This document shows, piece after piece, positions 1,262-1,452 of a stretch of 64,000 nucleotides of DNA (positions within the stretch are counted from its first letter, which is position 1; every line of letters starts with the position of its first letter). Origin of the DNA: Eledone cirrhosa (lineage: Eukaryota); the NCBI GenBank assembly GCA_964016885.1, contig OZ024744.1, positions 24,800,001 through 24,864,000 on the forward strand, read 5' to 3'. A model generated the notes under the pieces. That model was not told the DNA's origin and did not search any database. It was given only the letters and a program-made list of their open reading frames with translations. A program made the translations under genes and the position numbers.

Positions 1262-1452
1262 CGAGGGAAAAGTGGTAAGGAACCAGGTGGACCATAACGC
1301 ACCAAAGTACTCAATACTTAGGGTAGTAGAGTGGGTAATAGGAGTAAGTAAGACCCCGACGGCTGAGCTCAAGCCGTTTCGACGGCTAATTCTGTACAGA
1401 ATTAGCCGTCGAAACGGCTTGAGCTCAGCCGTCGGGGTCTTACTTACTCCTA
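1262..1452 (-). mobile_element. Family B pLTR-like element with fold-back end (perfect palindrome about 1339-1452)
   Basis: Further copies at 4498-4641, 7583-7706, 15013-15165, 16757-16934, 20289-20460, 20765-20868, 23611-23795 and 37842-37981, almost all directly in (TA)n. Confidence 0.85.

What the first reader, a model, noticed from the sequence alone, without database searches (positions are those of the whole stretch)
1339..1452. Family B keeps only half a hammerhead: fold-back occurs inside stem II and erases CUGANGA
Seen: the palindrome arm reads TAGCCGTC-GAAAC-GGC-ttgagctca-GCC-GTC-GGGGTC, which fits stem II 3' strand, GAAA, a 5-bp stem III, a GUC cleavage triplet and stem I 3' strand. 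Where CTGANGA should be, there is the exact reverse complement of the 3' half. A similar turn-around occurs at 4573-4607, about 16795 and about 23735, and I found no CTGANGA core in any of nine copies. Inference: the RT stalls at the ribozyme stem II and switches onto its own cDNA, or quasi-palindrome correction occurs, reproducibly disarming the ribozyme. Alternatively the half ribozyme is a substrate cleaved in trans.
Basis: partly seen in the sequence, partly recalled or inferred. Interest (0 to 1): 0.75.

Follow-up and report, generated by a model that had tools for sequence, protein, structure and literature searches.

The report
Promoter inside a Penelope hammerhead loop
The palindrome is two short, head-to-head copies of the end of a very common Penelope-like jumping gene; longer copies carry a complete hammerhead ribozyme motif with an already described U-A core swap, and the short copies lack its front half likely because the element's RNA starts inside the ribozyme's loop, not because the ribozyme is being disarmed.

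Summary
The 116-bp palindrome (1338-1453) and the 3' half of a hammerhead are real. The element is the end of a Hydra-type Penelope-like retrotransposon (PLE): intact RT-GIY-YIG copies exist (L146). The core is not erased from the family. It reads UUGANAA (U3-A8, in print), which is why CUGANGA was not found: 6,761 genomic matches for YUGANAA against 12 for CUGANGA. Breakpoints are non-random but lie in loop II, past stem II: 64 of 68 unselected arms end between -11 and +19 of one initiator-like A, often preceded by an extra G. Best reading (about 0.7): that A is the capped transcription start. Two reverse transcriptions, from two fixed sites on one RNA, run off it and are joined head to head, here at a GTAC microhomology. 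A smaller peak of arms starts at the predicted cut site (25 of 63 places), which suggests the variant ribozyme cuts. RT stalling at stem II, single-strand fold-back and a MITE fit poorly. The scan reported this architecture for other PLE families in this genome before. The start site nested in loop II is the distinctive, untested point.

The parts
1261..1340 (-). 80-nt 'tail': the element's 5' UTR beyond the pseudo-LTR end, present on one arm only; ends at the second predicted RT start site
   Evidence: In L146 the same stretch follows the pLTR end and continues to the ATG about 90 nt further on. Tail on exactly one arm in 15 of 17 unselected pairs and 10 of 10 long head-to-head copies.
1341..1397 (-). 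Tailed arm: pLTR end from +2 to the first predicted RT start site (3' half of the hammerhead)
   Evidence: With the tail, 133 nt match long copies L225 and L230 with 1 substitution each; both carry the core.
1394..1450 (+). Untailed arm: second copy of the pLTR end, +2 to the CC|TA end
   Evidence: Exact reverse complement of 1341-1397.
1394..1397 (.). Head-to-head joint at a 4-nt self-complementary microhomology (GTAC, +2 to +5, in loop II)
   Evidence: Sequence. The same joint is in 4 of the first 30 copies of this subfamily; the others differ.
1400..1410 (+). 3' strand of hammerhead stem II (mirror copy 1381-1391 on -)
   Evidence: Pairs with the 5' strand after the core in long copies.
1411..1433 (+). 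GAAA, stem III with palindromic loop, and GUC; predicted cut between 1433 and 1434
   Evidence: Fold of long copies. GAAAC invariant in 20 of 20 aligned copies, the GUC triplet GUC in 19 of 20. Peak of arm starts at this bond.
1434..1438 (+). 3' strand of stem I (GGGGT), partner of ACCCC before the core in long copies
   Evidence: 91% of cells paired, 2 of 5 pairs with two-sided changes.
1247..1260 (.). (TA)n target, left flank (the right flank starts at 1451)
   Evidence: All 30 identical genomic copies inspected lie in TA-rich runs.
4496..4643 (.). Second window copy, with an internal deletion in the tailed arm
7594..7712 (.). Window copy with tail and short arms
15003..15167 (.). Window copy with tail and asymmetric arms
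16748..16935 (.). Window copy; tailed arm reaches +1, untailed arm starts at about +24
20287..20460 (.). Two adjacent pieces; the tailed piece (20362-20460) ends at the predicted cut site
20770..20867 (.). Older-subfamily single arm
23611..23797 (.). Window copy; tailed arm ends at +17, untailed arm starts at -3
37833..37983 (.). Window copy joined within the palindromic stem III loop

Best explanation
The locus is a 190-bp head-to-head insertion of the end of a Hydra-type Penelope-like retrotransposon in a (TA)n run, and it lacks the hammerhead core likely because the element's capped RNA starts inside loop II of the ribozyme, so cDNAs begun in the first pseudo-LTR would run off the RNA before reaching the core. 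Shown: the parent ORF, the complete hammerhead motif with a UUGANAA core in long copies, the sharp 5' edge, the one-sided tail, and junctions that differ from insertion to insertion. Inferred: (1) the A of (T/C)AGT(C/A)C is the transcription start and the extra G is the copied cap; (2) one RNA-protein complex primes both ends of a break in (TA)n, at two fixed RNA sites (pLTR end and tail end, each followed by UAU); (3) the two cDNAs, about 60 and 140 nt, are joined by end-joining, here at GTAC; (4) RNA arriving from upstream (3' pLTR, tandem units) holds the whole ribozyme and is sometimes cut after GUC.
For: Parent: L146 has pLTR-ORF-pLTR with a 719-aa RT plus C-terminal GIY-YIG-type ORF. L225 runs from the ORF end through the core into this copy's own subfamily end. 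Core: 6,761 YUGANAA against 12 CUGANGA matches, reversed-pattern controls 1 and 0; position 7 takes all four bases; pair 3-8 is U-A in 14, C-G in 4 and unpaired in 2 of 20 aligned copies; three-way fold is the MFE for L146. Edge: 64 of 68 arms in 1.244 Mb of unselected DNA end at -11 to +19; the other 4 extend past the core. Genome counts for a non-parental base before +2, +1 and -1 are 7,365, 10,886 and 3,203, and 87 of the first 100 at -1 are C or A, as the partner arm or TA flank would give. G precedes +1 in 43 of the first 100, +2 in 16 of 100 and -1 in 13 of 100. After removing parent- and partner-explained cases the non-T bases before +1 are G 11, C 6, A 0. An extra G marks capped full-length L1 insertions (PMC11702581, passages). 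5 of 30 copies that read on into the 5' UTR also begin at +4 to +15. Two sites, one RNA: tail on exactly one arm in 15 of 17 and on both in 0 of 17; arm ends concordant in 16 of 17 against 3.6 shuffled. Two internal RT starts bounding the tail were shown in vitro for another PLE (PMC11167929, parts 1-2). Cutting: 25 of 63 distinct places start at the cut bond, against 38 spread over nine neighbouring positions (one search read by eye; p 5e-10, or 19 of 57 and p 1.5e-6 after dropping 6 possible CpG-decay cases).
Against: No RNA was seen: start site, cap and cleavage are inferred from DNA. About half of the G bases before +1 in inspected loci (11 of 22) could come from the partner arm. Loop II can form a weak inner hairpin whose 3' strand covers +1, so a structural stop is not excluded. 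21 of the first 100 core-bearing copies have C3 with A8, an unpaired core (counted by eye), and pair 10.2-11.2 is standard in only 6 of 20. Fold z-scores of the long copies are modest (-0.65 to -2.15). Some insertions join arms from different RNAs (L213; L032 and L042 with another family). Arm concordance may partly reflect subfamilies being active at different times. Later deletions could create arm asymmetry. Pfam and PDB gave no hit for the ORF, so its identity rests on motifs and on likeness by eye to published Hydra proteins. The tail (80 nt) is longer than the published 30-40 bp.
Confidence: 0.7

Rival explanations
1. One reading: the RT stalls at ribozyme structure (stem II or the inner loop II hairpin) on a longer RNA and folds back on its own cDNA.
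For: Breakpoints cluster within about 20 nt of stem II. An inner hairpin in loop II covers +1 in three subfamilies. Self-priming was proposed for PLE junction palindromes (PMC3846280, passages).
Against: Most arms end after the whole 3' strand of stem II has been copied, not at its base. The edge is sharp at +1 with excess G. The untailed arm is the longer one in 5 of 15 single-tailed pairs (tailed longer 6, equal 3, 1 unscorable; by eye) and by more than 20 nt in L217, L228, L231 and window 23611-23797. Thousands of copies read through the motif.
Confidence: 0.12
2. The template is a short non-coding RNA made from the short copies themselves (SINE- or retrozyme-like, internal promoter from +1), mobilised in trans; the autonomous mRNA contributes little.
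For: Short arms outnumber core-bearing arms about 16 to 1. A 299-bp tandem derivative without ORF exists (L360). 33 of the 40 best genomic matches are identical over 193 nt.
Against: It needs the same start site, so it is a variant of the best reading. Only 4 of 30 copies of the subfamily share the window's junction, and one of these (L213) has discordant arm ends, so the palindrome is not copied as a unit. Long copies of the same subfamily exist (L225, L230).
Confidence: 0.12
3. The half ribozyme at the RNA 5' end is a substrate strand, cut in trans or by the core strand in the same RNA's 3' UTR.
For: The 5' half holds GAAA, stem III, GUC and the 3' strands of stems I and II, which is the substrate strand of a two-part hammerhead (recalled knowledge). 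Arms starting at the cut bond exist.
Against: The core strand in the 3' pLTR has its own cis partner, and cis cutting of read-through RNA explains the same peak. In vitro, hammerhead cleavage was not needed for PAc insertion.
Confidence: 0.04
4. A MITE with terminal inverted repeats, or quasi-palindrome correction after insertion.
For: Perfect palindrome, TA flanks, many identical copies.
Against: Contiguous with an RT ORF. The tail lies outside the palindrome on one side. The outer 10-12 nt of the arms are the most variable part between subfamilies and the centres vary.
Confidence: 0.02

Closest known systems
Hydra clade of C-terminal EN+ Penelope-like elements, including Hydra-1_Obim (Craig et al. 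2021, PMC8557442; section 11, passages, supplement part 2 and search hits seen)
   Same: Single RT-GIY-YIG ORF with DKT, RW(K/R), CxCX5C linker, CxxC and CxH; (TA)n targets; inverted 5'-truncated copy and one-sided tail.
   Different: Every Hydra hammerhead in the table of canonical motifs seen (File S2) has a CUGANGA core and a loop II of 10 nt or less. This family has mostly UUGANAA and a loop of about 33 nt that likely holds the start site. The unit is 3.1-3.5 kb rather than under 3 kb, and the tail is 80 nt.
U3-A8 hammerheads of Schistosoma mansoni Cercyon PLEs (Cervera and De la Pena 2014, PMC4209133, parts 1-2 of 4 read) and natural U3-A8 variants (Perreault et al. 2011, PMC3088659, passages)
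   Same: Same compensatory core swap in a PLE pseudo-LTR; paired motifs on opposite strands from truncated PLEs were noted there.
   Different: Those are minimal motifs without helix III; this one has a 5-6 bp helix III with a palindromic loop and a long loop II.
PAc Poseidon element of Anolis (Frangieh et al. 2024, PMC11167929, parts 1-2 of 4 read)
   Same: Two internal RT start sites bound the tail; both target strands are cut and extended.
   Different: There the start sites were not homologous to the cut DNA and lie within the ORF. Here both sites are followed by TAT, matching the (TA)n target, and lie in the 5' UTR.
Drosophila virilis Penelope internal promoter (Schostak et al. 2008, PMC2377424, passages)
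   Same: Promoter and start site lie inside the pseudo-LTR.
   Different: There the hammerhead begins at the intron end downstream of the start, so the transcript would hold the whole motif. Here the inferred start splits it.
Animal non-LTR retrozymes (10.64898/2026.07.22.740005, part 1 of 5 read)
   Same: A 299-bp tandem derivative with a full motif in 7 units exists in this family (L360).
   Different: The window copy is not tandem and has no complete ribozyme.

Membership tests
Hydra-clade PLE | Single ORF with RT and C-terminal GIY-YIG endonuclease | tested here: met
   719-aa ORF L146:3480-5636 with YRDD and C-terminal VIY...YIG motifs; by motif only, Pfam and PDB blank.
Hydra-clade PLE | DKT in place of DKG; RWK motif | tested here: met
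   DKT and the variant RWR in the L146 translation.
Hydra-clade PLE | CxCX5C linker, CxxC and CxH around E and N | tested here: met
   All three are seen in the L146 translation.
Hydra-clade PLE | No CCHH motif in the endonuclease | tested here: inconclusive
   None recognised by eye; no alignment to CCHH-bearing PLEs was made.
Hydra-clade PLE | (TA)n insertion preference | tested here: met
   30 of 30 identical copies in TA-rich runs; long copies end in (TA)n.
Hydra-clade PLE | Canonical CUGANGA hammerhead in the pLTR | tested here: not met
   12 canonical against 6,761 YUGANAA matches; four diverged relatives keep CUGAUGA. Filed as a variant for this reason.
Hydra-clade PLE | Phylogenetic placement within the clade | not tested
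   No tree built; likeness to Hydra-1_Obim judged by eye from the supplement text.
EN+ PLE insertion structure | Inverted 5'-truncated copy at the 5' end and a tail on one end | tested here: met
   15 of 17 unselected short pairs; 10 of 10 long pairs chosen as opposite-strand neighbours.
Type I hammerhead ribozyme (long copies) | Stems I-III around the conserved core, with pair 3-8, G10.1-C11.1, A15.1-U16.1 and NUH | tested here: met
   83.5% of cells paired, 7 pairs with two-sided change, slid controls 30-50%; G10.1-C11.1 in 18 of 20. Related sequences inflate the shuffle test.
Type I hammerhead ribozyme (long copies) | Self-cleavage | not testable with these tools
   Only indirect: peak of arm starts at the predicted bond.
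Type I hammerhead ribozyme (window copy) | Catalytic core strand present | tested here: not met
   No core in the window.
MITE | Conserved terminal inverted repeats at both outer ends, no link to an RT | tested here: not met
   Tail outside the palindrome, variable arm ends, contiguity with an RT ORF.
Non-LTR retrozyme | Tandem units each with a complete hammerhead | tested here: not met
   Not so for the window copy; met by the derivative L360.

The most novel reading that the evidence does not exclude
In this family the promoter is nested in loop II of the hammerhead, so one pseudo-LTR works as a positional switch. RNA that starts in it carries only the substrate half and cannot cut itself, staying capped and usable as mRNA and RT template. 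RNA that arrives from upstream carries the whole U3-A8 ribozyme and is cut. One RNA-protein complex then primes both ends of a (TA)n break at two UAU-flanked sites, and the mass of short palindromes are fossil maps of the start site and the cut site.
Probability: 0.45. Interest if true: 0.6.

Novelty: new variant of a known kind. Interest (0 to 1): 0.38.

Why it matters
How PLEs make their inverted ends and tails, and what their hammerheads do, are open questions in the papers read. A family with tens of thousands of short insertions records RNA 5' ends in DNA, so start site, cap and cut site can be mapped and then tested. A start site inside the ribozyme would explain how an element keeps a self-cutting motif in both terminal repeats without decapping its own mRNA. 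It also warns that CUGANGA-only searches miss this family.

Tried and rejected
The 31 loci read were junction accidents or a second family's motif. These patterns allowed at most 38 nt between core and GAAA; the true distance is 54-56 nt. Rfam found no hammerhead in the window or in L225, L102 and L042; it also missed the textbook-looking motif in L042, so the blank is uninformative. Pfam and PDB sequences gave no hits. No Atlas result was obtained for the ORF. No RNA holder listed. Contigs of three runs of unrecorded kind were laid on L146: summed depth in run X1 rises about 20-fold across +1 and falls over 40-fold at the tail end, but this is not a copy number and X1 may be the assembly's own sample, so it is not used as support; runs X5 and X6 gave 3 and 4 contigs only. 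The extension script overshoots by a few bases where the partner arm resembles the parent, so its values of -4 to -11 are upper bounds. Its anchor missed one core-bearing arm that is truncated at the 3' end (L174). The count of 57 of 58 single-tailed pairs among other loci was set aside because those loci were partly chosen by tail and may be duplicated. A copied 193-nt master was rejected (4 of 30 share the junction). Searches of the paper library listed no title or abstract start describing a start site inside a PLE hammerhead loop; most hits were seen only as listings, subscription papers are not covered, and bioRxiv supplements were closed.

Full report
Observation. The window lies in a 3.0-Gb, microsatellite-rich animal genome; an octopus-like SINE nearby is recognised from recall only. 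Bases 1338-1453 form a perfect 116-bp palindrome, preceded by a unique 80-bp segment (1261-1340) and flanked by (TA)n. Nine loci of the family lie in the window, and none has a hammerhead core. Of the 40 best genomic matches, 33 are identical over 193 nt, and all 30 inspected sit in TA-rich runs.

The parent. Searches for the predicted CUGANGA master gave 1 and 73 hits, and the 31 loci read were junction noise or another family. Walking upstream found 1,664 copies that continue past the palindrome centre. They lead through a long 3' UTR into an RT-endonuclease ORF. L146 is an intact pLTR-ORF-pLTR unit with a 719-aa ORF, preceded by a partial tandem copy and an inverted truncated copy. The protein has DKT, RWR, CxCX5C, CxxC and CxH, the marks given for the Hydra clade in Craig et al. 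2021 (section 11), and resembles Hydra-1_Obim by eye. Pfam and PDB are blank, and no tree was built. L225 and L230 belong to the window copy's own subfamily (1 substitution in 133 nt); L225 runs from the ORF end through the core to the tail. The unique segment is the PLE tail: in L146 it continues into the 5' UTR, about 90 nt before the ATG.

The ribozyme. Long copies read ACCCC, then YUGANAA, then a stem II 5' strand, a loop of about 33 nt, and then exactly the half seen in the window. There are 6,761 such matches against 12 with CUGANGA. Position 7 takes all four bases. Of the first 100, 79 have U3-A8 and 21 have the unpaired C3-A8. In an alignment of 20 copies chosen to span subfamilies, U4, G5, A6, A9 and GAAAC are invariant and the cleavage triplet is GUC in 19. 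Pair 3-8 is U-A in 14, C-G in the 4 diverged relatives and unpaired in 2, and 7 pairs show two-sided changes (relatedness inflates this test). The three-way junction is the minimum-energy fold of L146, with modest z-scores. The U3-A8 swap is in print for Schistosoma PLEs and described as active in vitro.

Where arms stop. Number the A of AGT(C/A)CAG as +1; the 3' strand of stem II is then +8 to +18 and GAAA starts at +19. In 1.244 Mb of DNA taken without regard to the family (118 10-kb stretches plus the window; 10 stretches adjoin the window), 64 of 68 arms end between -11 and +19 and 4 run past the core. That density implies very roughly 100,000 or more arms genome-wide. Genome-wide, a non-parental base precedes +2 in 7,365 places, +1 in 10,886 (a minority of these are a subfamily with a templated C) and -1 in 3,203; the last are mostly explained by the partner arm or the TA flank. 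G precedes +1 in 43 of the first 100, against 16 and 13 at the neighbouring positions. About half of the inspected G cases could come from the partner arm; the unexplained remainder is G 11, C 6, A 0. An extra G is the known trace of a cap in L1 insertions, the site resembles an initiator (recalled consensus), and Penelope's promoter lies in its pLTR. Five of 30 copies that read on into the 5' UTR begin at +4 to +15, while 21 include upstream pLTR and 4 begin further downstream. A stall at stem II would stop the RT near +18, not after it. The window joint is the GTAC at +2 to +5. Among the first 30 of 673 copies of this subfamily, 4 share that joint, 2 keep the core and the rest differ, so the palindrome is remade at each insertion.

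How the two arms arise. Of 17 unselected short pairs, 15 have the tail on exactly one arm, 2 on neither and none on both, and 16 have matching subfamily ends. Ten of 10 long pairs are single-tailed. Independent choice of start sites would give many double-tailed and untailed pairs, so the two sites seem to be used together, as expected if one complex primes both ends of the break on one RNA. Frangieh et al. showed two internal starts and extension of both strands for another PLE. The untailed arm reaches further 5' in 5 of 15 pairs, which argues against one cDNA folding back, although later deletions could mimic this. Exceptions with two different RNAs exist (L213, L032, L042).

Cutting. Among arms that abut a TA run near the GUC, 25 of 63 distinct places (from the first 100 of 564 raw rows; 2 are tandem duplicates) start exactly at the predicted cut, against 38 over nine other positions. 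This fits cis cleavage of read-through RNA. It does not require trans-cleavage. L360, a 299-bp tandem derivative, fits the model: its first unit starts 5 nt before +1 without a core, the next 7 units carry the core, and the last ends at the tail.

Earlier notes. My reading (Hydra PLE, U3-A8 core, run-off at a start site, one copy ending at the cut) was recorded before the look-up. The scan's notes on other families in this genome report the same architecture, capped starts and cut-site ends. They pointed me to PMC3846280 and Hydra-1_Obim and encouraged the cut-site count. They are not independent support.

Verdict. The locus is an ordinary product of a known class of element, and its core variant is in print. 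What remains of interest is the inferred start site inside loop II, which would keep the mRNA's 5' copy of the ribozyme incomplete; it is untested at the RNA level.

Noticed in passing
L360 (G000:C2:356029300-356033300), 490-2725, minus strand: Retrozyme-like array of 299-bp units derived from this PLE by deletion from just after the ATG to just before the core, with loop II shortened by about 22 nt; 7 units carry the full U3-A8 motif, and the first starts near +1 without it.
   Followed up: partly
L042 1476-1770 and L032 1210-1640: A family arm joined head to head to the 3' end of a different repeat family that carries a canonical CUGAAGA hammerhead motif: likely chimeric insertions from two RNAs.
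   Followed up: partly
L102, L104, L108, L110: Diverged relatives with CUGAUGA cores and similar stem III and downstream sequence; likely the ancestral C3-G8 state.
   Followed up: partly
G000:C1:91476607-91487254, C1:437200356-437210969, C2:320551590-320558698: Head-to-tail arrays of units with periods of 3,531-3,544 bp, candidate source loci.
   Followed up: no
L145 2394-3749, minus strand: An open frame of a different, related RT lies between two arms of this family; nested or chimeric.
   Followed up: no
window 42277-47539: Tandem array of a 36-bp unit, 146 copies, 97% matches.
   Followed up: no
window 1491-1551 and 4310-4368: A 60-bp inverted pair 2.8 kb apart, each next to a (TA)n run; possibly the ends of another head-to-head element.
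   Followed up: no
window 4123-4290: Another repeat that starts at a TA run and recurs beside several fetched loci (L031, L042, L084, L233, L240), sometimes as a palindrome.
   Followed up: no
window 39267-39334 (minus); 5215-5360 and about 5850-5930: tRNA-like match (31.3 bits), probably a SINE head; and an inverted pair of SINE-like copies (family recognised from recall only).
   Followed up: no
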